DNA of 64,000 nt from Thermodesulfobacteriota bacterium (GTDB lineage Bacteria; Desulfobacterota_D; UBA1144; Nemesobacterales; Mycalebacteriaceae). The stretch covers positions 886,570 through 950,569 of the forward strand of contig OZ242184.1 of the NCBI GenBank assembly GCA_965205855.1, given 5' to 3'. Positions 39,506-53,232 of the stretch are shown here, in pieces. The notes beneath the pieces are model-generated. The model was not told the origin of the DNA and did not search any database. It was given only the letters and a program-made list of their open reading frames with translations. The position numbers and the translations under genes were made by a program. Each line of letters starts with the position of its first letter. Position 1 is the stretch's first letter.

Positions 39506-42115
39506 CTAAATTGACTCAACAACACCGGCGGACATTTCAATCGCTTCGGCAACCCCTTCGGGACGGTCTCCGCCCGCCTGCGCGAGCACGGGCTTTCCGC
39601 CTCCTCTGCCGCCAATCAGCGGGGCAATCTCCTTGATGATTTTCCCCGCGTGAAACCTGTCTGAAATATCCTTTGTAACCCCGACAAGGATAAATGCCTT
39701 TCCCTCGCGCACGCCGCCAAGCACCGCGACCCCGCCTTTAATTTTCGCGCGTATCCCGTCCCACAATTCCCTCAACTCTTCGGGGCCGCAGTCCGGAACT
39801 TCGCGTGAAAGAAACCGCGCTCCGTTAATTTCCTTCATGCCGGATATCATCTCACCGGCGCCTTTCATAAGAGCGCTTTTTCTGCGCACACCAGACTCCT
39901 TTTCGAGCTCCGTGTTACGCTCAAGCAGTTTTCCGATTTTTTCCGCAACCGCTCCCGGAGCAACTCCGAGCATCTTTGCGGCGCGCGCAAGAGTCCTTTC
40001 GTTTTCCAGAGCGCGTTTGTACGCCGCCTCATGGCAAACCGCCTCTATTCTTCTCACTCCCGCGCTTGAAGCGGATTGCGAAACTATGCTGAACATTCCC
40101 GCCTCCGCGGAGTTGGCAATATGAGTTCCGCCGCACAGCTCAACGCTGTATCCGCCGATTGAAACCACCCTGACCCTGTCGCCGTATTTCTCCTCAAAAA
40201 TCGCCATTGCCCCCCCTTTCAGCGCCTCTTCGTAAGAAACATCCGCTCTTGTAACAACCTCGTCCGCGCGTCTTATTTTCTCATTCACCATATCTTCAAT
40301 CCCCTTAATGTCTTCGTGGCTCACGGGCGAGTGGTGTGTGAAGTCAAACCGCAATCTGTCCGGGGCGACAAGCGAGCCCGCCTGTGAAACATGGGTTCCG
40401 AGTTTGTCCCTCAAAACGGAGTGCAGTATGTGAGTCGCGGTGTGGTGCGCGCACGCGGCGCGTCTGCAGCTTTTGTCAACTGAAAGGCGCACGGTGTCTC
40501 CGGGGCGAACCGCGCCTTTTTCAATCACGGCGCGGTGGCGGATAATACCCGCGATGGGGCGGGTTGTGTCAATCACTTTCGCAAAAAACCCGTCCCCCTC
40601 AATGGTTCCCGTGTCTCCCGCCTGTCCTCCGGACTGTGCGTAAAAAGGCGTTGAATCGGTAACAATGTCCGCTGTGATGTCAGAATTTGCGAAAAAAACA
40701 ACCTTGCCCGTCCCTTCGGTGGCTTCGTAGCCGGTAAAAGCCGATGAGAAACCCGCGGAAACAAGTTCCGACAAACCCCCGCCGCCGTCTTCGGTGCCTT
40801 TCCACGACCCTTTTGACTGCTCTTTCTGTTTTGCCATCTCTTTGTCAAAACCTTCCCTGTCAACCCCGATATTTTTTTCCCTGAGCACATCCTCGGTCAA
40901 TTCAAGCGGAAAACCGTACGTGTCGTAAAGTTTGAAAGCCACATCGCCGGAAAGTTTTTCACCGCTTGAAAGTTTTTTCACTTCGCTCTCAAGAATCTCA
41001 AGCCCTCTGTCTGCGGTTTCAAGAAAACCCTCCTCTTCTTTCATCACGATTTGAGCCGCAAACTCGGTTTTTTCCACAAGTTCGGGATAGGTTCCGGCAA
41101 GTGTGCCGGAGACCGCGCCGAGGATTTTGAAAAGAAACGGCTCATTTGTGCCGAGGGTTTTCGCATGGCGCGCGGCTCTTCTGATAATTCTTCTAAGAAC
41201 ATAGCCCCTACCTTCGTTTGAGGGAAAAATCCCGTCCGCGATAAGAAACACAGCGGCGCGCGCATGGTCTGCGATAACGCGCATGCCGCTGTCAATCCTG
41301 CCTCCCTTTCCATCTGTGTATTTTATTTGCGAAAGTTCTTCAATCCGCCCGATTACGGGGCGAATCAGGTCGGTTTCGTAGTTTCCGGGCGCTCCCTGTA
41401 TGACCGCCGTTATCCTTTCAAGTCCCATCCCCGTGTCTATGTTCGGAAGAGGAAGGGGTTTTGTCTCGCCGGATTCATTCTGTTCATACTGCATAAAAAC
41501 AAGGTTCCACAACTCAAGGTAGCGGTCGCAGTCGCAGCCCGGCGCGCACTCCGGTTTACCGCATCCGGTTTTTTCGCCCTGGTCTATGAGAATTTCCGAA
41601 CACGGCCCGCACGGCCCCACATCTCCCATAGTCCAGAAGTTGCTTTCGTCTCCCATGCGCAGAATGTGGGATTGCTCAAGCCCCGCTTCTTTGCGCCAGA
41701 TTTCAAACGCTTCGTCATCGTCCTTGTAGACGGTAACCCAGAGTTTATTTTTGGGAAGTCGGAAAACATTTGTCATCAAATCCCATGCGAAATGCACGGC
41801 GTCCTGTTTGAAATAGTCGCCGAATGAAAAATTGCCGAGCATTTCAAAAAATGTGTGATGCCGTGCCGTGTATCCGACATTGTCCAGATCGTTATGTTTT
41901 CCGCCCGCTCTCAAGCATTTCTGCGACGAGACCGCGCGTTTGCTGGCGGGAGGCTGTTCGAGTCCGAGAAAGATGTTTTTGAACGGAACCATCCCCGAAT
42001 TGGTAAAAAGAAGAGTCGGGTCTTGCACGGGGATAACGGGTGCGCTTCTTACACGCTTGTGGCCGTTTTTTTCAAAGTAAGAAAGAAAAGTTTCCCTTAT
42101 TTCGTTTCCGGTCAT
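39506..42115 (-). CDS. alaS: alanine--tRNA ligase
   Basis: 869 aa. Class II core, HxxxH/CxxxH editing domain, C-terminal DHHA1. Confidence 0.92.
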   Translation of the reverse strand: MTGNEIRETFLSYFEKNGHKRVRSAPVIPVQDPTLLFTNSGMVPFKNIFLGLEQPPASKRAVSSQKCLRAGGKHNDLDNVGYTARHHTFFEMLGNFSFGDYFKQDAVHFAWDLMTNVFRLPKNKLWVTVYKDDDEAFEIWRKEAGLEQSHILRMGDESNFWTMGDVGPCGPCSEILIDQGEKTGCGKPECAPGCDCDRYLELWNLVFMQYEQNESGETKPLPLPNIDTGMGLERITAVIQGAPGNYETDLIRPVIGRIEELSQIKYTDGKGGRIDSGMRVIADHARAAVFLIADGIFPSNEGRGYVLRRIIRRAARHAKTLGTNEPFLFKILGAVSGTLAGTYPELVEKTEFAAQIVMKEEEGFLETADRGLEILESEVKKLSSGEKLSGDVAFKLYDTYGFPLELTEDVLREKNIGVDREGFDKEMAKQKEQSKGSWKGTEDGGGGLSELVSAGFSSAFTGYEATEGTGKVVFFANSDITADIVTDSTPFYAQSGGQAGDTGTIEGDGFFAKVIDTTRPIAGIIRHRAVIEKGAVRPGDTVRLSVDKSCRRAACAHHTATHILHSVLRDKLGTHVSQAGSLVAPDRLRFDFTHHSPVSHEDIKGIEDMVNEKIRRADEVVTRADVSYEEALKGGAMAIFEEKYGDRVRVVSIGGYSVELCGGTHIANSAEAGMFSIVSQSASSAGVRRIEAVCHEAAYKRALENERTLARAAKMLGVAPGAVAEKIGKLLERNTELEKESGVRRKSALMKGAGEMISGMKEINGARFLSREVPDCGPEELRELWDGIRAKIKGGVAVLGGVREGKAFILVGVTKDISDRFHAGKIIKEIAPLIGGRGGGKPVLAQAGGDRPEGVAEAIEMSAGVVESI

Positions 42116-42179
42116 TTAATTGCCGTCCGTGGCGCGACAGAGTGAAGTGGGAAAAGACGCACGCGGGGAATTGAGAAAA

Positions 42180-42434
42180 TCACTCTGCGGGAGAAACGAC
42201 CGAGACGGTGTTTCTTTTTCCTTTGCGGAATTTCACAACTCCGTCTGCAAGAGCAAAAAGCGTCCAGTCCCGTCCGGTTCCGACATTGTCTCCGGCGTGA
42301 AAAGAAGACCCTCTCTGGCGGATGATGATGTTTCCCGCTTTGACGACTTCTCCGCCGAATTTTTTAACGCCGAGCCGTTTGCCCGCCGAATCTCTTCCGT
42401 TTCTTGAACTGCCGCCGCCTTTTTTTGTGGACAT
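42180..42434 (-). CDS. rpmA: 50S ribosomal protein L27
   Basis: [25 protein letters not shown]-terminus. Confidence 0.9.
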
Positions 42435-42446
42435 TCTCTGTCTCTC

Positions 42447-42764
42447 CTACCCTTTTATACCGGTTATGCGAACCGATGTGTATCTCTGCCGGTGTCCGGC
42501 TTTAAGTCTGTATTTTTTGCGTCTTTTGAATTTAAAAACGGTAATTTTAGGTCCTTTCTTCTGAGAGACGATTTCGCCTTTAACTTCCGCTCCGTCAACA
42601 ACGGGAGTACCCACGCGCGCCTCACCCTCTCCGTCCGAAACCATAAGCACATCGGGAAATCCGATCGTGTCTCCGGGGCTACCCTCGATTTTTTCTATGT
42701 CAAGAACATCTCCGGATTTGACCAAGTACTGTCTGTTTCCTGTTCTTATTACTGCCTGCTGCAT
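42447..42764 (-). CDS. rplU: 50S ribosomal protein L21
   Basis: MQQAVIRTGNRQYLV N-terminus and C-terminal KKYRLKAGHRQ. Confidence 0.9.
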   Translation of the reverse strand: MQQAVIRTGNRQYLVKSGDVLDIEKIEGSPGDTIGFPDVLMVSDGEGEARVGTPVVDGAEVKGEIVSQKKGPKITVFKFKRRKKYRLKAGHRQRYTSVRITGIKG

Positions 42765-42788: not shown

Positions 42789-43547
42789 TCAATTATGCCA
42801 CAAAAAGGGATGGAGTGTCAAACTATACGGCGACCGCCTGATAGTCGGGGAGTTCACCCATTGTTTTCCCTCAAGAGCGCGTCCCGTCTTCTTTTTGTTC
42901 ACACCGCCCCATTGTTTGAAGAAAAACGGAACCCCGCTTTCAACGCAGTTGTCCCTGATTTCCGTAACCCATTCCTCTTTCATCGGTCTTGCGCCGGGGC
43001 CGGACTCTCCACCGACAATGACCCAGTCTATGCCTGACAAATTGAGGTTTGGAAACGGGGCAAGCAACGGTTCAAGAGAAAGAAACTTCACGCAAGCATC
43101 GGTCTGTTTTAAAACTTCTGTACGGGAAAGATATTTCTCGGACTCTACGCTTGTTCCCATCCAGATGTTGGAAGTCCAGTGCAGGTGTTTGTTCGCCTTC
43201 ACAACCCTTTCCGGTCTTTTTGTGAGAACCTGAAAAGTGTGTTGAGATGCTTCGTTCATAACTTCAAAAACGGACATAATGAATTTTGCGGGAACATCCT
43301 TGTGGAACAAATCGCTCATTGAATTGACAAAAACTATTTTCGGTTTTTTCCATTTAAGCGGGTCTTTCAAAGTGTGTTCATGAGTGGTGAGTTTGAAACC
43401 GTTTCTGTATTTCTCCATCCCTTGAGCGTGAAGCCGCTTTGCCATCCGCTCGGCGTAGCAGTATTTGCAACCGTGGCTGATTTTTGAACAACCGGTAATG
43501 GGGTTCCATGTTGTGTGAGTCCATCCTATTTTGGAGGGTTGGGTCAT
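42789..43547 (-). CDS. phage Gp37/Gp68 family (DUF5131) three-Cys-motif protein
   Basis: N-terminal [26 protein letters not shown] matches the family's GWxxxTWNPxxGC..C..CY signature (C-x6-C-x2-C). The ATG overlaps the res stop (TAATG). Confidence 0.75.
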
Positions 43548-46090
43548 TACTGTTTGTTGATAACACCGTTTATATCGTCCCGCCAGCTGTCTTCAAACAT
43601 CATCCTGAAAGTAGCGGGCGTCTTATTGATGGCCATTTCGCCTCTGTCAAGGGCGATCCTGTATGTTTTTTCAAGCGTGTCGAGCAATTTTTTCTTGTAA
43701 CTCGTATCTTCGCTGCCTTTCAGGTGGATGCCCTTTGTTTCCAGAATTAGCAGTTTTCCGTTATCTTTTCGGCAGGCCACAAAATCGGGATACACGCGCT
43801 GGCGTCGCCAGCCTTGCAGATAGTACGCTTGTCTTGCAGCTATTCTGTGCCACCAGTAGATGGCGTTGCTCTTATCCAGATAAAGCGCAAAATCCCGCTC
43901 CAGACCGTTAAAACTACTTTCATAAACAGGTTCAAAAAGGTTTTGCTGTATAGGTCTGCCATGTTCGCTCTGTAATGATCTTTCTTGACTGGAAACAAAA
44001 ACCTCGAACGACTTGCTCAATTCGTAGTCCAGTCGCTGGTCGGTCTCAAGGTGAAACCGAATCACATTCCGCCCAACCTTTTCCCGAAACACCGCTTCGG
44101 CCTCGTCGTCTATGGCCTTGTTCACGCGGCGGCTCAATTCTTCGGAAAGGTAAATTCGGTTATTCAACAATTTGCTTTCATCGTGTTTCCTGTTTTTATG
44201 TGTTTGAATAAACCCCTCCGCCATGCGCGCCGCCTGCCACGGATTGGGCACCTTGTCCACAAGCCGCCGAACAAAATAATCCACGCTCAGCCGCTTTTCG
44301 CTGTCAGGGATTTGTTCCGAAGCCTTAACCTGCCCTTGAATGTCCACCGTGGTTTTGATCTCCTGAGTGATGTCTCTATCATCCAGATTCACCGCTGCGC
44401 CCGCGTCAATGGTGTCCCAATCAATCGCGCTTAATATATCGCGGTCGTAATCAATGGGGCGCCAGGTGCGCCCCGCTTTGTGTAACACCTGCGGGAGAAA
44501 AATTTTCAATGGCCGGTATTTACCACGACGTTTGACGGTGGTCGGTTTCGGTGCATCGCCCTCGCCATGCCCGTGAACAAAATCGCCAAGCCCGGTCAGC
44601 CCTTCATTCTCCAGGCCGGCCTTCACGCCTTTGATCGCCTTGCCTACGACCTGATTATAGCAATAGATATAACACTGGTTCAGCGCATCGCCTTGTGCGA
44701 TTCTGCGTGCATGGGGTTGCCGCATCACCCGACCGACCATTTGCGTGATGGCGGTGGTTGCGGTGGTGTTATCCAGCAAGGCAAGCAGATATGCAAACGA
44801 GCAATCCCAGCCTTCTTTCAGCGCGTCTTTGGTGATAATCCAGCGCACCTCGCTTGTCTCGCTCAACAAATCCTCACCCGCAAGTTCCTTGCGTTCCGAT
44901 GATTGAATCCTGATGTGATTCTCCGGCACAGCAAGATTTTGTATCAGGTATTCGCGCGCATCCTCCGAATGAATTTTTCCTTGCCCTCTTTGTTTTGCGC
45001 CCGTTCTTTCCACCCTGACCAAAGCGATGGGTCGGATATGGCGGTTTTCCTGTTCCTGTAATTTTTGCGCCGCACTTTCAAGCTCATCCAGTTTTTCCTG
45101 TGTTTTGGCAAGCGTGTGTTCCCAGTCGGAATTGCTGAAACTGTGAATCTCTATCGGCAGTTTGATCATCTCCTCGTCCTGGAGGTCGCGGCCCGATGTG
45201 TTGACCAGGATATTGCTGATGCCGATTTTCGGCGTGGCGGACAGTTCAAGCACAAAACGGGGGTTGAGCCGGTTGACGGATTTGACAAACTCCTGGTTGT
45301 TTTGATTATTCGGTCCATATGCTTTATGCGCTTCGTCCAAAATCACCGTGGGACGAATCAGTTTCAGCACATTGATCAGGCTTTGCTTAACCCAGTCGCC
45401 GGGTGCATTTTTCTCCAGGTCGGGATGGTGTTCCGAAAGCGTTGCATTGGCCGCCGCGTCATCCTGCTCGGGAAAAAACGACATATACCCGCTGCTGTCG
45501 CGGAATATTTTGAGAAACTCCCTGTTCTTTTGCCGGTTGGCGGAGGGTAGCATCAGCAGCATAATGCAAAGATAGTTTTCGGTATCCTGTCGGGTAAAGC
45601 GGTCGGTTTTTTGCAACAATTTGACCCTGCCGCCAGACATATGTTCGAGCATCTGCCGGTAGGTATGTTCGCGGGTGTGGAACGCCTGGCGGGTCTGCTC
45701 GTAGATCGCCCGGGTCGGCACAATCCACAACACAAAGCCGGTATCCCGCTTGATCCGCTCAAGCGTGGCCACGCCCAACAGCGTCTTGCCGCCGCCGGTC
45801 GGCACCTTCAGGCAAACATGCGGGATGGGTTCGCCGGATGCCGCAGTGCGGGAAATGTAGCCGGGAACTGCCATGTCACCGTCTTGGGAAATGCCGGGGA
45901 GGATATTTTGATCTTTCAGCGCCTTCCAAGCTAAGAGGGGATAGTTTTGCAGTTCTTCAGGAATATCAATCCCCGACTCTTCAAGAGCTTTGCCCGCCTT
46001 TTCACTAGTCAGCCGCGCTTCCTTGAGCGCGTCCAGCCAGCGGTCTAACTGTTCAAGAGCTTGTTGCTGATAGTTTTTCAGGGAGAGCAT
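43547..46090 (-). CDS. res: Type III restriction enzyme Res subunit (SF2 helicase plus C-terminal PD-(D/E)xK nuclease)
   Basis: Walker [13 protein letters not shown] box [11 protein letters not shown] (LSATP), motif [12 protein letters not shown]-terminal VYPDF...LILETKG nuclease core. Start set at the internal ATG ([10 protein letters not shown], 46090) abutting the upstream ORF. The ORF track extends to 46225. Confidence 0.8.
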
Positions 46091-46091
46091 A

Positions 46092-46649
46092 TCACGGATT
46101 TTTTGAGTCAGTACTGTCTGAATTATTTGGCAAATTGATGATTTCAACAGGCACATTCCTTTTACCAACTGCAAGACCGACAGCGTAGTTACGGATAATA
46201 GTTTGATCCATTTCCATATCCGCATAGCCTTGTGGATAGTACGAACCCCTTAGAATTTCCATCTGTTCTACCTTAAAATCTAGCACCTTGGCCATTGAGC
46301 TAAGCATCTCCGTGAGCAATTCCATTTGCTCCTTGCCGAGTCGTTCATAGTGCGAACGAGAATCATTTTCTTCGTTAGGCCTCTTAGCATGCGTTTCACC
46401 ATAATGCTTGCGGAGTGCTGCCCATTTTTCTATAACTTCTTTATGCTTAACAAATTCTATCTCAACCAGATTAATGGCTCCGACATAATCAGGTGATAAA
46501 CGCGCATTTCGTGTACGCATTAACGTCTTGAATATATCCATTTTTCGCGCCTTTTGTTCGCGCCATCTGTCAAGAAGACCGTTAACCCAGACAGCTGCGC
46601 AAGGACCGATTAAGATGGCTGCAATGGTGATGATAGAATATGAATTCAT
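46092..46649 (-). CDS. hypothetical membrane-anchored protein (single N-terminal TM), embedded between mod and res
   Basis: ATG start, N-terminal hydrophobic helix IITIAAILIGPCAAVWV, then a charged helical region. 2-nt gap to the mod stop and 1-nt gap to the res start. Visibly AT-richer than its neighbours. Confidence 0.55.
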   Translation of the reverse strand: MNSYSIITIAAILIGPCAAVWVNGLLDRWREQKARKMDIFKTLMRTRNARLSPDYVGAINLVEIEFVKHKEVIEKWAALRKHYGETHAKRPNEENDSRSHYERLGKEQMELLTEMLSSMAKVLDFKVEQMEILRGSYYPQGYADMEMDQTIIRNYAVGLAVGKRNVPVEIINLPNNSDSTDSKNP

Positions 46650-46651
46650 GT

Positions 46652-48291
46652 TTATCTTATACCCTCATATGGTAATTGGGCAAAAGTTATCCCCATCTCG
46701 GTTAATGCTTTTTGTCCCATGAATTTGTGAGTGGCGAACACCACCGCGGTTTTCTTTTTTGCCTTGGCCTGTTTGGCGATGCGTTCGGCGCGGGTGCTGT
46801 TCAAAGCGGAATCCGCACTGCGCAGAAAATCAAGGTTCGGCTCGTAGATCAGGTAAAACATTTTGTCACCTGCTTCATAAAATAAACCGTCTTTGCCACG
46901 CCTTGTTTTCGGGTTGAGTTTATGCGGCGATTGTCCGCTTGCGGTATAGATCAGATGGCGGGCAAAGGTTTCATAGCCCGGCAGGTTCCTGCCGGTGAGC
47001 ATTTTTTCAATGCTGATTTCATCGCCCAGTGTGCAATAGGCAAAACTGCCGCCCAGTCCGTTTTTTAGGTTCTCATCCTTTGCTTTTGGTATGCCCTTTA
47101 TCACACGGCGAACGCGCTCGGCGGTGATTTTGTCGGCGTAGTCTTCGCATTCCACCAAGATAAATTTGCGGTTGCCGCCGTCTTCCTTGTTCAGCGCAAG
47201 CACGGCGTGGGCAGTGGTGCCGGAACCGGCGAAGGAGTCGAGGATAATGGCGTTTTTTGTCGTTGCCAGTTGTAAAATCTTTTTCACAAGGGAAATTGGT
47301 TTGGGGTTTTGGAACTGATTAGAACCAAACACCGTCCTCAACTCGATTGTGCCGTTGGTTGTTGTACCTACATCATCCCACCAAGTGCTAGGCGTTAACC
47401 CCCTTCGGCGTGCCTCTGACAAAAAACGTTTGCGCTGAGGTCTGGAACTATTTCTCTTTCCGAATACGATTCTATTGTCTGCAAGAAGCTCCTCAAATTT
47501 GTTCAAATCGTTTTTCCAGCAATTACCTTCAGTGGGGTAAAATATTTCTTTTGTTTTAGGGTTTCTTATCGGATACATCTGATTAGGTCGAACCCCACCA
47601 GCCTCAAATGGATCCGCCTTCCATGGGCCTCTCGGATCATTATCAGGATTTTTGAATCCTTCTAAAATGGCAGGAAGTTTGAAATCTTTTCTAATGGTTT
47701 TTAATACATTCAGTTGTTTAGCATAAGCTATATTATGAGTGTGTGATATTGATACTAATGCAGGATTTGTAATTGATTTTGTGCTATGCCACACAAAATC
47801 TGCAACAAAATTCTCCTCCCCAAAAATCTCATCCATGACCATCCGCAGGCGGTGCTGTTCATTGTCGTCGATGGAAATAAAAATTACGCCATCTTCGGCC
47901 AGCAATTCTCTTAACAACTGCAATCTTGGCCACATCATGCACAGCCATTTGTCGTGCCGCTCCAGGTCTTCGCCATCCACCGGACTTTTGCCTTTCAGCC
48001 ACGCCTTCATCATCGGGCTGTTGACATTGTCGTTATAGACCCATTTCTCATTGCCGGTGTTGTAGGGCGGGTCGATGTAAATGCAGTTGACGCGGCTGGC
48101 ATAGCGCGGCAGCAACGCCTTGAGCGCGTGCAGATTGTCGCCGTGGATAATCAGATTGTCATCAAGGGAAGGGTTACCCCCCCATTTTTCGCTGAAAGAG
48201 ATTTTTTAGTGTCTATCTCAAGTGTCCTGGACGGAACAGTCAGGTGGTGCGCATAAATGAGTTGCTTCCCTTTGAAATCAATTGTCGGCAT
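46652..48291 (-). pseudogene. mod: Type III R-M Mod subunit (beta-class N6-adenine/N4-cytosine DNA methyltransferase), frameshifted at a G7 homopolymer (phase-OFF or sequencing slip)
   Basis: The in-frame body 46652..48115 carries DPPY (motif IV, CIYIDPPYN) and FAGSGTT (motif I). Upstream in the same frame there is NLIIHGDNLHALKALL but no start, and a stop codon follows. An ATG at 48291 opens frame +1 (MPTIDFKGKQLIYAHH..) and ends 47 codons later. The two frames join if the G7 tract at 48177..48183 is 8 G. Confidence 0.75.
48177..48183 (-). repeat. poly-G7 (C7 on the plus strand) simple sequence repeat inside the mod 5' region
   Basis: gggttaccccccca on the plus strand. Homopolymer tracts at the 5' end of Type III mod genes are the classic phase-variation switch. 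Confidence 0.8.
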
Positions 48292-48448
48292 TGAAAACCC
48301 CGTAAATCAGTTTGATATTGGCTTTGAAGATACCCGATTTACTCCCCCAACCTAAACCCCTCAACCTCCCGATGCACCGCCCCTTCCCGTCTCAATTCAC
48401 TCTCCATCAAACAAACTCTTTCAGAAGCAAAACCAAGTTCAAACTGCG
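48285..48448 (+). repeat. direct repeat A: copy of the thpR 3' end (last 36 codons, 48339..48448 on the minus strand) plus about 54 bp downstream. Identical to repeat B
   Basis: 164 bp identical by eye to 51106..51269. The minus strand encodes ..LPQFELGFASERVCLMESELRREGAVHREVEGFRLGE*, compared with native ThpR ..LPQFKLEFVSDRVCLMESELRREGAVHREVEGFRLGE*. The mod ATG lies inside this repeat. Confidence 0.8.
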
Positions 48449-48830
48449 CCCGCGGTGACATGGAGAACCGGATCAAGGATCAGCAGTTGGATTTGTTTGC
48501 GGATCGCACCTCTTGTCACCGCTGGTGGCCCAACCAGTGCCGGCAGTTGCTGTCAGGGTTGGCTTACACGTTGATTGAGGGATTGCGGCGCCTTGCACTA
48601 CAGGGCACCGAACTGGCCAAAGCCAGTCCTCACAGGATCAGGCTGACACTGCTTAAAATCGGTGCCGTGATCATCCGCAACACGCGCCGCATCCGCCTAC
48701 TGATGAGCAGTGCTTATCCCCATCAGGCGTTGTTCCGCACGGCAGCCTATCGGCTCAACTCCCCATAAACCCAACCCAGTGCTGCCCCGGCATGTTGATA
48801 AACAATGGGGGTAGGGGGAGTTGCGCCCGA
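48449..48830 (+). mobile_element. IS1380-family-like insertion sequence remnant (3' end only). The right boundary is approximate
   Basis: Begins abruptly at the repeat A junction and encodes only the C-terminal 100 aa of a DDE transposase. Downstream GGGGTAGGGGGAGTTGCGC could be a terminal inverted repeat. Confidence 0.5.
48460..48768 (+). pseudogene. transposase C-terminal fragment (IS1380/IS4-like)
   Basis: ENRIKDQQLDLFADRTSCHRWWPNQCRQLLSGLAYTL resembles the conserved C-terminal block of IS1380-family transposases (ENRIKE..L..ADRLSCH..ANQ.RL). The N-terminal roughly 350 aa are absent. Confidence 0.6.
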
Positions 48831-48959
48831 AATCTGTGAACAACGAAAGAATTGATCAAAGAACAGGCAACTGCATCATATGATGCATCGACAGGGATGG
48901 CGCTACCGAAAAATCGACCACCACCGCTTCACTCATGAAATATCCGGGATAGTCTCGCT

Positions 48960-50099
48960 TTATTTTCGGATGAGAAACAGAAATTCTTTATTCGGATCGC
49001 TGGATTCCCGCAACCACTCATTTGTCCATTTCATGGCGGCCATCACATTTTTTTTATACTCAATTTTTGCGCTATCCACAATTTCTCCGTTACGCGTTAT
49101 CACCTCGTTTAATTCCTCCGCGGTTGCTCGTCCACCGGAACTGTAAGAGAGCAAGATCCATCGGCAAGGAGTTTCCTTCAGCAAACGCTCTATGGCTTCC
49201 ACCACAACCAATCGTCCTGATTTGCTTCTACGAAATTCCTCGAACACTGAAGTCGCCACTTTATCGGATGTGTCTTTTCTGCGGAGGGACTTGCCAAATA
49301 GCACGGGATGATCATTTTTACATATGGTCGTCCACAAATGATAATATGAAGCGTACCGAACCCTTGAAGGTGGCATTTTTTCATTGTTTGACCCATACGG
49401 AGGATCAAAATAAGCAAGATCGGCGTCCGCTTCGGGAAGTACCTTAAAAACATCACCACACAGCACCGTGTTTTCGATTTCATTTTTCCACAACCGTGGC
49501 ACTTTCAATTGTAAATTTTTGAATGAACGCGGCGACCAATCTTTTAAATAAGAAACAAAATGACCAAGAGTACTGTCTATCTCATTCAACCCTAAAATCA
49601 GGCTTGTCAATGCCACACTTTTGGAAACGTCATCCAGCATCAAGGCATCGATCTCTCTCCTGATTGCATCAAGTTTTCTTGTATTTTTTTTCTGCCAAGG
49701 CTTTTTGGTTCCATCCTTCTGAATAGCATTATGGCAAGTTCCAGAGCGAACATCACCACCGTAATTCTCAGTAAACCATCCGTCTTCCGGAGGAAGCGAA
49801 TTTAAATGATCAATAAGAGGTTGGTATATTTTCGGGTTTTTTAAGTTTTTCAAATAGCACGTGGCAAAAATTCTTGACCATTCGGAAATATCATTTGATA
49901 CCACGCGATATCCTGCTTGTGCAAAAGATTGACTTACTCTGGTGGAGCCTGAAAAACCGTCAAAAATGCTTTTTGCTCCGGTCTGTTTTGACAGATTAAA
50001 AATATGTGGAAGCAGTTTCAGTTTTGAGCCTGCGTAATTGATGCCTTCGGTTTTTGGAACATCAATCCAATCACGAAAAATTTGAACTTGCCCTTGCAT
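48960..50099 (-). CDS. Dam-family (D12 class, alpha-type) N6-adenine DNA methyltransferase
   Basis: NYAGSKLKLLP (compare Dam WAGGK), FDGFSGS (motif I) and YFDPPYG (motif IV) in the alpha-class order. Has a C-terminal extension of about 100 aa. AT-rich. Confidence 0.8.
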   Translation of the reverse strand: MQGQVQIFRDWIDVPKTEGINYAGSKLKLLPHIFNLSKQTGAKSIFDGFSGSTRVSQSFAQAGYRVVSNDISEWSRIFATCYLKNLKNPKIYQPLIDHLNSLPPEDGWFTENYGGDVRSGTCHNAIQKDGTKKPWQKKNTRKLDAIRREIDALMLDDVSKSVALTSLILGLNEIDSTLGHFVSYLKDWSPRSFKNLQLKVPRLWKNEIENTVLCGDVFKVLPEADADLAYFDPPYGSNNEKMPPSRVRYASYYHLWTTICKNDHPVLFGKSLRRKDTSDKVATSVFEEFRRSKSGRLVVVEAIERLLKETPCRWILLSYSSGGRATAEELNEVITRNGEIVDSAKIEYKKNVMAAMKWTNEWLRESSDPNKEFLFLIRK

Positions 50100-50776
50100 T
50101 ATGTAACTTTAAAGCGGGAAGCCTGCTTGAGTCTAACAATATCATCTTTCACTTTTGCAAGAGCCTCATTCTGGCCGAAATCAGAAGAAACAAGCGCGTG
50201 AGAAAATAGTTGGACCAAGATAGGATTGTGAGAATAATCAACCCATCCATTGGTTATGCTATCAAAATAGTTTAAACCACTTTTTGTATGAGTCCAAAGC
50301 CCTCGCTGGAGGGCATTGGCGGTTGCGCTTCCATAACGCACCTCGCAAATATAAGAATCGCTTGCATCGTAGAAACGATATACTGGGTGCTTTCTACCTT
50401 TCTTTTTTGTTTCTTTTACTATTTTCACCGTTTCAGTTTCAGCGCGGTGGTAATCGAAGACAAGAATATTACACTGTCGATTTTTTTCGTCATAAATTAA
50501 TGGCAAAACATTTACATTGTAAAAATCCGAGAAAGCGGGGTCGGCAAGCACTCGTTGTACATTTTTCTTGCCCACTATTTCATCCCCCTCTTGTGCCAAT
50601 CTCGGAAACATTTTGAAATTCTTGTCGGTTGAAAGTTGAAGGGGACCATCACCATACGCTTTGATGCTAACAGGAAATTCAGCTTCGGTTACTTCATTTA
50701 TTATTTTGATGTCTTCTTCCCGAGATTTGGCTCTGTATAAATCTTTGCCAACATGGATCGAGCGAAAATCATACAT
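50099..50776 (-). CDS. hypothetical protein. Putative Type II restriction endonuclease partner of the Dam-like methyltransferase (by context only)
   Basis: Co-oriented with the methyltransferase gene, start-stop overlapping it. AT-rich. No motif I can name from sequence. Confidence 0.4.
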   Translation of the reverse strand: MYDFRSIHVGKDLYRAKSREEDIKIINEVTEAEFPVSIKAYGDGPLQLSTDKNFKMFPRLAQEGDEIVGKKNVQRVLADPAFSDFYNVNVLPLIYDEKNRQCNILVFDYHRAETETVKIVKETKKKGRKHPVYRFYDASDSYICEVRYGSATANALQRGLWTHTKSGLNYFDSITNGWVDYSHNPILVQLFSHALVSSDFGQNEALAKVKDDIVRLKQASRFKVT

Positions 50777-50777
50777 A

Positions 50778-50987
50778 CTACTGGTTGATAAATTCGGCTA
50801 TGGCGATTTCTGCCAAATCTCCATGTGTTTTATTTCCAATGAGGCGCATGGTGAAAATGTTGCTCAATGTCAAGATTATTAAATCCGGGCGTTTACTCGC
50901 AAGAAGCTTCAATCTCGAGATGAAATCTTTATATGGATCATTTTTCATGTTTTTCGTTTGATGCCTCTGTTTTGGTATTTTTATCAA
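50778..50987 (-). CDS. small ORF (TTG start). It may be the N-terminal part of the downstream endonuclease gene split by a frameshift, or a separate small gene
   Basis: Its stop lies 1 nt from the ATG of the 225-aa ORF, in another frame. Combined length would be about 294 aa. Confidence 0.25.
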   Translation of the reverse strand: MIKIPKQRHQTKNMKNDPYKDFISRLKLLASKRPDLIILTLSNIFTMRLIGNKTHGDLAEIAIAEFINQ

Positions 50988-51105
50988 CCTTCATTTTTCA
51001 GATCGTCGCATGAGCTTGGGTTGAGATGATTCGGTAGCGTCATCGAGAATTCATGTGTATCAATTGCTGTTCAAGTTTAACCCGTTTTGCCTGTAAATCA
51101 CCCAA

Positions 51106-51269
51106 TCGGCATTGAAAACCCCGTAAATCAGTTTGATATTGGCTTTGAAGATACCCGATTTACTCCCCCAACCTAAACCCCTCAACCTCCCGATGCACCG
51201 CCCCTTCCCGTCTCAATTCACTCTCCATCAAACAAACTCTTTCAGAAGCAAAACCAAGTTCAAACTGCG
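51106..51269 (+). repeat. direct repeat B: identical to repeat A
   Basis: 164/164 identity with 48285..48448 on visual alignment. Continues on the high-coordinate side into more thpR-homologous sequence. Confidence 0.8.
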
Positions 51270-51338
51270 GCAATTCGGGTAGCTTCATCCTTTTTTTTAT
51301 CCACCCTATCGTAACGTGCGACATAAAATCCCGTTATT
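51160..51338 (-). pseudogene. thpR 3' fragment (last 57 codons), diverged copy
   Basis: Encodes RDFMSHVTIGWIKKRMKLPELPQFELGFASERVCLMESELRREGAVHREVEGFRLGE*, compared with native RDFIPHITIGRIRKRIKLPELPQFKLEFVSDRVCLMESELRREGAVHREVEGFRLGE*. There is a stop codon immediately upstream in frame. Confidence 0.75.
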
Positions 51339-51461
51339 GTAGGCTGCTGTTATGTGTAACGGAGTTTCATATGAAAATTCTCTGCTATGAGCAATTGTGG
51401 TCACTGGGATTCTCACAATTGCTGGTTGTGCGAGCCAGCCAGATTTGACAATGACTCAGTA

Positions 51462-51872
51462 TTAGTGCTCGCCCTCTTGATTAATTTGTTTCCACAAACT
51501 GCCGATAGCAAGTAGTGCTGGAATAATAAGTAGCACCACTACAATTGGCACACTTGATTTAATTACCTCTACATTTAATGCATATACGGTAATAACATCG
51601 GATATGTCCGTCAATAATCTGACAATTAATATCGCTAAAAGTGCTTTATGAGACTTAAGGAATAAAGCAACTATTATCCCTATAACTACCATTACATTTC
51701 TTGTAATGTAAAGTTGTGTAACATAATTCAATTCGGAAACCTCTGGTATGAAACCACTTGGGTTCATGGCCGTACCAGCTGAGAAGAAAAGCACTAAAGA
51801 TATTTGTATTAGAACAATGACCCATACCCAAATAGGTAAGAATCCATTGGTTTGACCATTTTTGTAATTCAT
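51462..51872 (-). CDS. hypothetical 4-TM membrane protein
   Basis: Four hydrophobic helices and an ATG start. AT-rich. Lies between repeat B and native thpR. Confidence 0.55.
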   Translation of the reverse strand: MNYKNGQTNGFLPIWVWVIVLIQISLVLFFSAGTAMNPSGFIPEVSELNYVTQLYITRNVMVVIGIIVALFLKSHKALLAILIVRLLTDISDVITVYALNVEVIKSSVPIVVVLLIIPALLAIGSLWKQINQEGEH

Positions 51873-52050
51873 ATTTGCAACCTCTTATTTTTACCTAATT
51901 ATCACTTAAACTAAGCAGAGTTTCAAGATATTTTCCGGCATCGGCGGCGTTTTGAGCGCTGCATAAGCAAGTCTCGGTATTAACTCGCACAAATCAAAGC
52001 GACGATTGAAACGATACTGAAATTCTGACAAATAACGCTGTGCGTATTTT

Positions 52051-52256
52051 TCAGTTTGATATTGGCTTTGAAAATACCCGATTTACTCCCCCAACCTAAA
52101 ACCCTCAACCTCCCGATGCACCGCCCCTTCTCGTCTCAATTCACTCTCCATCAAACAAACCCTGTCAGAAACAAACTCAAGTTTAAACTGCGGCAATTCG
52201 GGCAGTTTTATCCTTTTTCTTATCCGCCCTATCGTAATGTGTGGTATAAAATCCCG
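52051..52256 (+). repeat. native copy (C) of the repeated thpR 3' terminus plus downstream flank
   Basis: About 85-90 percent identical to the B fragment over about 200 bp. Homology ends at cagtttgatattggc, 32 bp past the stop. Confidence 0.7.
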
Positions 52257-52643
52257 TTTCTCCGGCTCAAAACCGATTGTCTCAAGTTTTGAGTCAATCT
52301 CGTCCTTGAGACTGAAAAACGCGTCCCCGGATTCCGCAATCACCGCAAGCGTCTGCGTATAACGGCGGAGTATAAGCGCCTCAACCCCGTCCGTTGTGAT
52401 GTCGAGCGGCACAAACCGCTTGCAACAACTTTCAATAACCCCGCACAGTTCGGGAATCAATTCGCGGCGCGTCTCTCCGAGAAACCTTAAAGTAATATGG
52501 AATTTTTCAGACAGCTCCCAACGCACATGGCGGAGCGAGCGTATTGCGGCGGAACGGGATTTTATCACCCTTTTTGCTTTTTCGGGAACTTCAAGAGAAA
52601 TAAAAAGCCGGACGGTAGCGCTGTCAACTCTCAAGCTCAACAT
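52083..52643 (-). CDS. thpR: RNA 2',3'-cyclic phosphodiesterase (2H phosphoesterase, LigT/ThpR)
   Basis: Two H-x-T/S-x motifs (HITLRFLGE and HITIGR) in the 2H fold. Start chosen at MLSLRV (52643). The ORF track begins at 52664. Confidence 0.85.
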   Translation of the reverse strand: MLSLRVDSATVRLFISLEVPEKAKRVIKSRSAAIRSLRHVRWELSEKFHITLRFLGETRRELIPELCGVIESCCKRFVPLDITTDGVEALILRRYTQTLAVIAESGDAFFSLKDEIDSKLETIGFEPEKRDFIPHITIGRIRKRIKLPELPQFKLEFVSDRVCLMESELRREGAVHREVEGFRLGE

Positions 52644-53232
52644 TCCAGTATGAGGCATCAACAAAACTTACAAACGGCTCCCATTCTTTGTAGCGGATTG
52701 GGTGCGCGTAAATGTTTGCAAACGGTCCCCACTGCGGTTCGGAGGGAATTGTGAGCAATTTCATCCTTGCCTGTTCGGGAGTTCTACCGCCTTTTCTGCG
52801 GTTGCACGAGCCGCAGGAGCAGACAACATTGTCCCATCTGCTTTCTCCGCCGTGCGCGCGCGGAATAACATGGTCTATCGTAAGCTCGGTTTTGGAAAAA
52901 TGCTTTCCGCAGTATTGGCATTTACCGCTGTCTCTGCGGAATATGTTGAAGCGCGTAAATCTCGGACGCTTTCTGTGAAATCCGCTGTAACGGAGCAGGA
53001 TTATAACCCTCGGCGCTTTGATGATCCTTGTAACGGTTCTCACATAGTCGCCACGCCCTCCGGCGGCAGAGGCGGCGGAAACCTCCGCCCAACTCTCAAA
53101 ATCAAAAGTCTCGTAGGTTTTTGTTACGGCTTTCGCCTCGCCGCAATAGAGCATCACAAATGCCCGTCGCAAATTGGTAACGGAAACGGGCATATAGTTT
53201 TTGTTCAAAACCAGAACCGGCGAACTCAACAT
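52624..53232 (-). CDS. HNH endonuclease (COG1403-type with N-terminal VLVLNxxYxP domain)
   Basis: HNH core CQYCGKH...TIDHVIPRAHGG...N...CSCGSCNRRKG. Its 3' end overlaps the thpR start. Confidence 0.8.
   Translation of the reverse strand: MLSSPVLVLNKNYMPVSVTNLRRAFVMLYCGEAKAVTKTYETFDFESWAEVSAASAAGGRGDYVRTVTRIIKAPRVIILLRYSGFHRKRPRFTRFNIFRRDSGKCQYCGKHFSKTELTIDHVIPRAHGGESRWDNVVCSCGSCNRRKGGRTPEQARMKLLTIPSEPQWGPFANIYAHPIRYKEWEPFVSFVDASYWNVELES

What the first reader, a model, noticed from the sequence alone, without database searches (positions are those of the whole stretch)
48116..48291. mod is frameshifted at a poly-G7 tract. It is either a phase-variable (currently OFF) Type III methyltransferase or a homopolymer sequencing error
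The long mod frame has no start of its own, yet still encodes NLIIHGDNLHALKALL upstream of the TTG used by the ORF track. It hits a stop a few codons further up. An ATG at 48291 in the +1 frame encodes MPTIDFKGKQLIYAHH.., typical of a Mod N-terminus, and terminates after 47 codons. Changing the G7 tract (48177..48183) to G8 fuses the two frames into a Mod of about 545 aa. Homopolymer slippage in mod is the classic phasevarion mechanism, and without Mod the whole Type III system is inactive.
Basis: seen in the sequence. Interest (0 to 1): 0.7.

Follow-up and report, generated by a model that had tools for sequence, protein, structure and literature searches.

The report
Frameshifted, probably phase-variable Type III methyltransferase
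A DNA-methyltransferase gene of a restriction system in a sponge-symbiont-like bacterium is switched off by a run of seven G's, and relatives carry G, C or CA repeats of many lengths at the same spot, so this is most likely a reversible on/off switch of a known kind and not an assembly error or a dead gene.

Summary
The mod gene (minus strand, 46652..48291) is split at a G7 tract (48177..48183). An ATG at 48291 opens a 46-aa N-terminal fragment, and the catalytic frame runs on to 46652. G8 or G5 fuses them into a 546-aa Mod.

Relatives decide the interpretation. Across 87 related mod copies, 10 of 13 G/C tracts of 7 nt or more lie in one 27-nt linker. With homologous flanks the tract reads G7 (window), G9, G11 and G24. 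Other relatives have G9, G10, G12, C9, C13, C14, C16, C17 or (CA)13 there. Ten of the 11 OFF copies, the window's included, are one repeat unit from ON with no other lesion.

Other findings fit a maintained gene:
- dN/dS against the closest copy is about 0.15.
- res is full length.
- The family shows swapped recognition domains around conserved ends.
- The window shows no general homopolymer error: 53 of 62 tracts of 7 nt or more lie in unbroken ORFs.

Best reading is a phase-variable Type III mod, OFF in the consensus (confidence about 0.65). A recent fixed frameshift or a miscalled G8 cannot be excluded without reads. This is a known mechanism, but I found no report of it in sponge symbionts. 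G7 is below the usual G9 cut-off.

The parts
48177..48183 (-). G7 homopolymer (C7 on the + strand). This is the simple sequence repeat that sets the reading frame of mod. G8, G5 or G11 would be ON.
   Evidence: The same site holds G9, G11 and G24 in relatives with homologous flanks.
48151..48291 (-). N-terminal fragment of mod in the current G7 phase: ATG at 48291, 46 aa, premature stop at 48151..48153. Residues 1-36 are the conserved N-terminus of the family.
   Evidence: dN/dS is 0.13 against L004 over 33 codons.
46652..48176 (-). Catalytic frame of mod downstream of the tract, about 508 codons. It holds the NLIIHGDNL motif, DPPY (motif IV), the recognition domain and FAGSGTT (motif I). The ORF tool calls it only from the TTG at 48115 (487 aa).
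   Evidence: PF01555, E = 7e-32; EcoP15I Mod and other solved Type III Mods, aligned from residue 43; PADLOC MTase_III; the 487-aa ORF covers profile positions 53-538 of 542. dN/dS is 0.15 against L004.
47258..47797 (-). Central target-recognition domain (residues about 166-345 of the fused protein). It is low in GC and is swapped among relatives.
   Evidence: GC is 0.36-0.38 here against about 0.50 in the flanks. Relatives whose flanking regions are 79-96% identical are only 20-45% identical here in four cases. It is 81% identical in L001b and 99% in L004.
46092..46649 (-). DUF6680 gene (185 aa) in the variable slot between mod and res.
   Evidence: PF20385, E = 6e-47. It is shared with L029. 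Other relatives carry different genes in this slot.
43547..46090 (-). res, the Type III restriction/helicase subunit. It is intact at 847 aa from the ATG at 46090.
   Evidence: ResIII, DEAD; PADLOC REase_III, E = 6e-213; residues 3-841 against profile positions 2-879 of 883. It is 92% nt identical to res of L004 and L029.

Best explanation
The locus is a Type III restriction-modification operon, mod - DUF6680 - res. Expression of mod is controlled by the length of a poly-G tract in a length-tolerant linker, which lies between a conserved 36-residue N-terminus and the methyltransferase core.

Mechanism (inferred): slipped-strand mispairing during replication adds or removes G's. With G8 (or G5, G11) the ribosome reads through and makes a 546-aa Mod. 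With G7, as assembled, translation from ATG 48291 stops after 46 residues, and the catalytic frame has no usable start before a conserved core motif.

Consequence (from established Type III biology): Res depends on Mod, so the OFF phase should abolish both methylation and restriction in that cell lineage without killing it. The assembled sequence shows the majority state of the sampled population as OFF.

Shown here:
- the frame structure of the gene;
- the conservation of both halves;
- a repeat at this site that recurs in relatives and varies in length;
- intact genes on both sides of the tract and an intact res.

Inferred: that the tract actually switches within this population at a useful rate, and that switching is adaptive, whether for phage defence, DNA uptake or gene regulation.
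For: 1. Frame anatomy is confirmed, and full-length homologues span both pieces.
2. Position. Of 13 G/C tracts of 7 nt or more in 143.5 kb of mod sequence from 87 copies, 10 lie 96-122 nt from the ATG. The binomial P is about 4e-16 if copies are treated as independent. A (CA)13 repeat lies in the same place in L083. Two further examples are L164 (C14) and L165 (G12).
3. Length polymorphism on homologous flanks: window G7, L002 G9, L004 G11, L029 G24. L003 has no tract and is intact.
4. Ten of the 11 OFF copies, the window's included, become a clean full-length ORF by changing one repeat unit. Two SSR-bearing copies are ON (L072 G9, L001a C17). Copies without a repeat are ON except two (L044, L068).
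5. Purifying selection on both sides of the tract: dN/dS is 0.15 and 0.13 against L004.
6. res is full length.
7. The family has conserved ends and a shuffled recognition domain, the allele structure typical of phase-variable mod genes.
8. No general homopolymer problem in the assembly: 53 of 62 tracts of 7 nt or more lie in unbroken ORFs, 8 are intergenic, and only this one breaks a gene.
9. G7 tracts are documented to switch (PMC5909438).
10. L022, whose contig name suggests an assembly from a different project, also carries a G10 tract, and L165 comes from a Logan assembly of an SRA run. The tracts are therefore not an artefact of a single assembly pipeline.
Against: - G7 is the shortest tract in the set and falls below the G9 or longer criterion of the reference survey. 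Switching may be slow, especially if the organism has mismatch repair, which I could not check in 64 kb.
- No reads are available, so heterogeneity within the population is untested.
- No copy of this allele with G8 was found.
- The neighbouring Type II endonuclease is broken by a non-repeat 1-nt insertion. Restriction genes are therefore also decaying irreversibly in this island.
- L002 shows that a member of the family can acquire a second, irreversible lesion.
- Most SSR-bearing relatives come from long-read metagenome assemblies, in which the exact length of long homopolymers is uncertain. Their ON/OFF calls are soft, although the tracts themselves are real.
Confidence: 0.65

Rival explanations
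1. Recent, effectively fixed pseudogene. A G8-to-G7 slip, or decay of a once longer tract, inactivated mod in a reduced-genome symbiont that is losing restriction systems. The tract is now too short and too slow to act as a switch.
For: - G7 is the shortest tract in the family set and is below the G9 criterion.
- The adjacent Type II REase carries an irreversible 1-nt insertion.
- An IS1380 remnant abuts the locus.
- L002 shows real secondary decay.
- The genome seems small: the contig is 1.40 Mb and the lineage is Dadabacteria-like.
Against: - There is no second lesion in about 1.6 kb of mod or 2.5 kb of res.
- dN/dS is about 0.15 on both sides of the tract. This averages over the whole divergence and cannot exclude a very recent event.
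- One slip restores the gene.
- G7 tracts do switch in other bacteria.
Confidence: 0.22
2. Assembly or consensus error. The true sequence is G8 and the gene is simply intact.
For: - Homopolymer indels are the main residual error of long-read data.
- Close relatives come from PacBio HiFi/metaMDBG sponge metagenomes, and the window probably does too. That is an inference.
Against: - All 53 other intragenic homopolymers of 7 nt or more, 18 of them 8 nt or more and three of them G/C7 (one inside alaS), are in frame.
- A 7-mer is well within the reliable range for a consensus of accurate reads.
- Even if the call were wrong, the tract would remain a hypermutable repeat in a family where it clearly varies.
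Confidence: 0.1
3. The G7 allele still makes active Mod. This could happen by ribosomal -1 slippage or transcriptional slippage on the G run, or as an N-terminally truncated enzyme from the TTG at 48115.
For: - Runs of G allow tRNA-Gly to re-pair in the -1 frame.
- In L002 a G9 tract puts an ATG that abuts the tract in frame with the core, and a gene caller used it.
Against: - There is no canonical slippery heptamer.
- There is no significant downstream RNA structure (z = -1.2).
- No Shine-Dalgarno-like sequence precedes the internal starts.
- The TTG product would lack NLIIHGDNLHALKA, which aligns with the start of the core in solved Type III Mods and with PADLOC profile positions before 53.
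- The ATG abutting the tract is not conserved in L004 or L029.
Confidence: 0.03

Closest known systems
Phase-variable Type III mod genes with mononucleotide G tracts (Helicobacter pylori modH/modJ/modL, Campylobacter upsaliensis modU), as surveyed by Atack et al. 2018 (PMC5909438)
   Same: - It is a Type III beta-class N6-adenine methyltransferase with a poly-G tract inside the ORF, upstream of the catalytic core.
- Frame depends on tract length.
- The family has many alleles that differ in the central recognition domain.
- A res gene lies downstream.
   Different: - The tract here is only G7, below that survey's cut-off of G9 or longer.
- The host is an uncultured Dadabacteria-like, probably sponge-associated, bacterium and not a host-adapted pathogen.
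- Switching, methylation motif and regulon are untested.
- res is intact, so the main effect may be on/off defence and not gene regulation.
Haemophilus influenzae / Neisseria modA, modB, modD phasevarions (tetra- and pentanucleotide repeats)
   Same: - The logic is the same: a repeat in the 5' part of mod, ON/OFF by slipped-strand mispairing, and recognition-domain alleles on conserved flanks.
- Horizontal exchange of alleles occurs in both.
   Different: - The repeat unit differs. Here it is a mononucleotide, or a dinucleotide in L083.
- In this family, repeats of different sequence (G, C, CA) sit at one shared linker in members from different phyla. That points to repeated independent origin and not inheritance of a single repeat.
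EcoP15I-type (non-phase-variable) Type III R-M systems (PDB 4ZCF)
   Same: - The domain order matches.
- The Mod core aligns with EcoP15I Mod from residue 43.
- Res is a helicase-nuclease subunit.
   Different: - This Mod has a shorter N-terminal extension, about 42 aa against about 90.
- It contains a repeat tract.
- An extra DUF6680 gene sits between mod and res.

Membership tests
Type III restriction-modification system (Mod + Res) | Mod is a beta-class N6-adenine DNA methyltransferase: motif IV (DPPY) lies N-terminal to the recognition domain, and motif I (FxGxG) lies C-terminal to it. | tested here: met
   PF01555 N6_N4_Mtase, E = 7e-32. IDPPYN lies before and DSFAGSGTT after the variable middle. 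PADLOC MTase_III, E = 9e-146.
Type III restriction-modification system (Mod + Res) | Sequence homology to experimentally solved Type III Mod subunits. | tested here: met
   6k0w Mod 1.4e-67, EcoP15I Mod 4zcf 2.6e-47, Mbo45V 7dsu 1.8e-37.
Type III restriction-modification system (Mod + Res) | A co-oriented res gene encoding a superfamily-2 helicase-type restriction subunit lies downstream of mod. | tested here: met
   ResIII and DEAD domains. PADLOC REase_III, E = 6e-213, covers the profile end to end. A DUF6680 gene is interposed.
Phase-variable mod gene / phasevarion | A simple sequence repeat inside the ORF whose length change moves the catalytic domain in and out of frame. | tested here: met
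   G7 at 48177..48183; G8, G5 and G11 are ON, while G6, G7, G9 and G10 are OFF.
Phase-variable mod gene / phasevarion | The tract is long enough by the survey criterion, 9 nt or more for mononucleotide repeats (PMC5909438). | tested here: not met
   The window tract is 7 nt. Relatives meet the criterion (G9-G24, C9-C17, (CA)13). The same paper notes that G7/G8 tracts can switch.
Phase-variable mod gene / phasevarion | Tract length differs between related genomes while the flanks are conserved. | tested here: met
   G7, G9, G11 and G24 on homologous flanks in the window, L002, L004 and L029. These are different MAGs or taxa, not strains of one species.
Phase-variable mod gene / phasevarion | Tract-length heterogeneity within one population (reads, colonies). 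| not testable with these tools
   No reads are available. The exact-protein look-ups found no record for this genome, and the DNA pattern scan of metagenome contigs found 0 hits.
Phase-variable mod gene / phasevarion | Multiple alleles differing in the central recognition domain on conserved N- and C-terminal regions. | tested here: met
   N-region identity is 94-99% and C-region identity 79-94%, while recognition-domain identity is 20-45% in four relatives.
Phase-variable mod gene / phasevarion | ON/OFF switching changes genome methylation and the expression of a set of genes. | not testable with these tools
   This needs methylome and transcriptome data from ON and OFF cells.

The most novel reading that the evidence does not exclude
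The window's mod is one member of a horizontally mobile Type III R-M family with shuffled recognition domains. The family circulates among sponge-associated bacteria of at least six lineages: Dadabacteria-like, Halieaceae, Ca. Spongiihabitans, Nitrospirales, Dehalococcoidia and others. Hypermutable repeats of different sequence (poly-G, poly-C, CA) appear to have arisen independently several times at one permissive linker. If so, stochastic ON/OFF switching of restriction and methylation would be a convergent, community-wide strategy in a non-pathogenic animal microbiome. It might serve to trade phage defence against DNA uptake or self-restriction cost. Eighty more distant relatives from other (non-genome) metagenome collections lack such repeats.
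Probability: 0.45. Interest if true: 0.6.

Novelty: new member of a known kind. Interest (0 to 1): 0.45.

Why it matters
Phase-variable methyltransferases have been studied almost only in host-adapted pathogens. A search of the held literature found no paper linking them to sponge symbionts.

This case suggests that the same switch operates in uncultured symbionts of marine sponges, on a restriction system that moves between phyla. It would be a route to population heterogeneity in phage defence and epigenetic state inside a dense, phage-rich host microbiome.

It is also directly testable from existing long-read data, because a single read carries both the tract and its methylation marks.

For annotation, it means such "truncated" mod genes should not be filed as pseudogenes or repaired as errors without looking at the reads.

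Tried and rejected
- Exact-protein look-ups for the window's own truncated Mod and for AlaS returned no contig record. I could not reach the source assembly, its coverage or its sample.
- A degenerate DNA pattern for the tract flanks found nothing in the JGI-type metagenome collection, so no strain-level variants were found.
- No ON (G8) copy of this exact allele exists in the protein database. The only cluster mate is the L004 copy, which is also called truncated.
- The promoter/terminator scan around mod gave nothing above shuffled background that helps.
- Programmed frameshifting is not supported. RNA folding of the region downstream of the tract is not better than shuffles (z = -1.2), and there is no canonical slippery site.
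- I considered a three-state switch using the ATG that abuts the tract (G9 would give a truncated Mod, as called in L002). I rejected it as a general feature, because L004 and L029 have ATC there and in L165 the ATG lies in the N-terminal frame.
- Neisseria origin, suggested by GC content near 50%, was rejected: no DNA uptake sequence was found, and AlaS points to Dadabacteria.

Full report
**1. What is in the sequence**

The gene lies on the minus strand. The sequence reads ...TCTCTTTCAGCGAAAAATGGGGGGGTAACCCTTCCCTTGATGACAATCTGATTATCCACGGCGAC..., with seven G's at window 48177..48183 (it is listed as C7 on the plus strand).

From the ATG at 48291 the frame gives MPTIDFKGKQLIYAHHLTVPSRTLEIDTKKSLSAKNGG and then runs out of frame to a stop. 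The product is 46 aa (ORF 48151..48291).

The neighbouring frame is open from just upstream of the tract (…KISFSEKWGGNPSLDDNLIIHGDNLHALKALLPRY…) to the stop at 46652. Its first ATG/GTG/TTG is the TTG at 48115, which is why the ORF list shows 487 aa. Adding one G fuses the two frames into a 546-aa protein; G5 and G11 also do so.

**2. What the gene and its neighbours are**

- The fused protein carries the N6_N4_Mtase domain (PF01555, E = 7e-32).
- It matches PADLOC Type III methyltransferase profiles. The 487-aa ORF covers profile positions 53-538 of 542, so only the N-terminus is missing.
- It aligns with solved Type III Mod subunits from residue 43-44 onward: 6k0w 1e-67, EcoP15I Mod 4zcf 3e-47, Mbo45V 2e-37. 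The core therefore starts at DDNLIIHGDNL, directly after the tract. A product started at the TTG would lack part of this core.
- Downstream lie a DUF6680 gene (46092..46649) and res.
- res is best started at the ATG at 46090, one base after the DUF6680 stop. At 847 aa it matches a Type III restriction-enzyme profile end to end (E = 6e-213).
- The locus is therefore mod - DUF6680 - res, and only mod is interrupted.

**3. Is the split real or an artefact?**

Homologues of 540-560 aa cover 99-100% of the fused protein, including the first 40 residues. The two pieces are one gene.

The window shows no sign of homopolymer trouble:
- It is densely packed with long ORFs.
- Of 62 homopolymers of 7 nt or more, 53 lie inside uninterrupted ORFs. 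Eighteen of these are 8 nt or more, and three are G/C7 runs, one of them in alaS.
- Eight are intergenic, and only the mod tract coincides with a frame break.

A plain consensus error is therefore unlikely. It cannot be excluded without reads.

**4. Relatives**

The closest relatives were fetched by exact-protein look-up and by a scan of one genome per species. Judging by their record titles they are mostly sponge-symbiont lineages: Poribacteria, Poriferihabitaceae, Ca. Spongiihabitans, Nitrospirales, Dehalococcoidia, Halieaceae and others. Many contigs carry metaMDBG-style names. The Sanger sponge genome notes describe such metagenome assemblies.

AlaS from the window is 71% identical to that of Candidatus Mycalebacterium sp. 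and 55-57% identical to other Dadabacteria and Thermodesulfobacteriota. The window therefore probably comes from a Dadabacteria-like symbiont. Its contig is 1.40 Mb.

**5. The key result: a repeat hot-spot**

A tblastn of the first 162 residues against all loci showed frame switches at the same place, query residues about 33-44, in many relatives. The DNA there holds repeats:

| Locus | Taxon or source | Repeat |
|---|---|---|
| L002 | – | G9 |
| L004 | Halieaceae | G11 followed by (TAA)3 |
| L029 | Ca. Spongiihabitans | G24 followed by (TAA)3 |
| L022 | Nitrospirales | G10 |
| L165 | – | G12 |
| L072 | Dehalococcoidia | G9, in frame |
| L001 | two tandem mod paralogues | C13 and C17, the latter in frame |
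| L164 | – | C14 |
| L079 | – | C16 |
| L080 | – | C9 |
| L083 | – | (CA)13 |

The window, L002, L004 and L029 share the flanks TCTCTTTCAGCGAA…(G)n…CCCTTC. These four are one homologous tract with lengths 7, 9, 11 and 24. L003 has AAAAGGGGAAAAACC at this site and is intact. The other tracts have unrelated flanks, which suggests several independent origins.

Across 87 mod copies (143.5 kb), 10 of the 13 G/C runs of 7 nt or more fall 96-122 nt from the start codon. The binomial P is about 4e-16 if copies are treated as independent, which they are only partly. The linker varies from 129 to 185 nt among intact homologues, so it tolerates insertions.

Eighty more distant relatives (45-67% identity) from other metagenome collections are all intact and have no linker repeat.

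**6. State of the repeat-bearing copies**

Eleven are OFF and two are ON as assembled. Ten of the 11 OFF copies become a clean full-length ORF when one repeat unit is added or removed. The exception is L002, which also has an extra C (CACCACC to CACCCACC) that kills the N-terminal ORF whatever the tract length. Copies without a repeat are in frame, apart from L044 and L068.

This pattern is expected for reversible slippage. For the long tracts it is also what length miscalls would produce. It is not what old pseudogenes look like.

**7. Selection and allele structure**

L004 carries the same allele: 94% nt identity over mod and 92% over res, with no homology in the flanks. The module has therefore moved between a Halieaceae genome and this one.

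Nei-Gojobori dN/dS between the two copies is 0.15 over the 505 codons after the tract and 0.13 over the 33 codons before it. Both halves have been kept as coding sequence.

Among relatives, the N-terminal core (residues 62-165) is 94-99% identical and the C-terminal region 79-94%. The central recognition domain is only 20-45% identical in L002, L003, L029 and L164, and 99% in L004. In the window this domain also has low GC, 0.36-0.38. Conserved ends with swapped recognition domains are the allele structure described for phase-variable mod genes (PMC5909438).

**8. Comparison with what is known**

Atack et al. [quoted passage not shown] They required 9 nt or more for mononucleotide tracts. They also note that G7/G8 tracts switch at 0.65e-3 or more in C. 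jejuni, and that a G7 tract switches at 1e-2 in N. meningitidis pptA.

The window's tract fails the strict length criterion but meets the others that can be tested here. The mechanism is therefore a known one. What appears unreported is the setting: searches combining phasevarion or phase variation with sponge symbionts found nothing relevant.

**9. Rivals**

- **Recent fixed pseudogene.** In its favour: this is the shortest tract in the set, and decay is visible next door. The Type II endonuclease at 50099..50776 has lost its first 56 codons to a separate ORF (50778..50948). The cause is a single-base insertion that creates a TAG and a frameshift at a non-repeat site. An IS1380 remnant also abuts mod. 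Against it: there is no second lesion, dN/dS is low, and one slip repairs the gene. I give it about 0.22.
- **Assembly error.** About 0.10, for the reasons in section 3.
- **Recoding or an active truncated enzyme.** About 0.03. There is no slippery heptamer, no significant downstream structure and no ribosome-binding site, and the TTG product lacks a conserved core motif.

**10. Verdict**

The most likely description is a phase-variable Type III mod, OFF in the consensus. It belongs to a mobile, multi-allelic family that has repeatedly acquired repeats at one linker in sponge-associated bacteria. Confidence is 0.65.

It is a new member of a known kind. Interest is moderate: the mechanism is textbook, but the ecological setting and the convergent repeat hot-spot are worth a follow-up. 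Existing long reads could settle the question.

Noticed in passing
window 50099..50948 (-): The Type II restriction endonuclease next to an intact D12-class methyltransferase (48960..50099) is split. A 56-aa ORF (50778..50948) matches profile positions 2-56 of PADLOC REase_II PDLC03568, and the 225-aa ORF (50099..50776) matches positions 58-278. The junction CAG TAG T ATG looks like a single-base insertion at a non-repeat site. It is probably a true pseudogene that leaves an orphan methyltransferase.
   Followed up: partly
window 48460..48768 (+): A 102-aa ORF matches only the C-terminal end (positions 334-418 of 419) of IS1380-family transposases. It is a remnant directly upstream of mod, near the edge of the horizontally shared mod-res module; homology with L004 ends at 48279.
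   Followed up: no
window 46092..46649 (-); L002 9630..10721; L004 7714..8999; L029 7696..8259: The space between mod and res is a variable cargo slot. It holds DUF6680 in the window and in L029, a Lipase_3-domain protein in L002, two unrelated ORFs (168 and 260 aa) in L004, and about 1 kb without a called gene in L003. The function of DUF6680 in this context is unknown, and it has no PADLOC hit.
   Followed up: partly
window 42789..43547 (-): A DUF5131 protein lies immediately downstream of res, with the stop and start overlapping. It strongly matches PADLOC candidate defence components PDC-M41B and PDC-M30B (E = 1e-117). It lies outside the block shared with L004 and L029, which ends at 43582.
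   Followed up: no
window 42800..52000: The whole stretch between rplU/alaS (39506..42764) and thpR (52083..52664) looks like a defence island with patchy low GC, 0.34-0.45 in places. It holds a Type III R-M system, a Type II R-M system, a PDC-like gene and an IS remnant.
   Followed up: partly
L001 5822..9156: Two mod paralogues lie in tandem on one contig. Each has a poly-C tract in the same linker (C13 OFF, C17 ON), and no res gene was called nearby.
   Followed up: partly
L002 7894..8020: This relative has G9 plus an extra C (CACCACC to CACCCACC) on a contig whose name gives 1543x coverage, which gives a stop before the tract. With G9, the ATG that abuts the tract is in frame with the catalytic core, and it was called as the start (MGGGNPSLDD...). 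The gene could be dead, or it could make an N-terminally truncated Mod.
   Followed up: partly
L004 6090..6150; L029 6100..6150: The G tracts of L004 and L029 are followed by (TAA)3, which reads as Asn-Asn-Asn in the ON frame and as triple stops in one OFF frame. L004 also has a 13-bp tandem duplication, CTCTTTCAGCGAA, just upstream of the tract.
   Followed up: no
L071, offset 499 in mod: A C11 tract lies at a different position in the mod gene of a Tepidiformaceae MAG. It may be a second, independent repeat site in the family.
   Followed up: no
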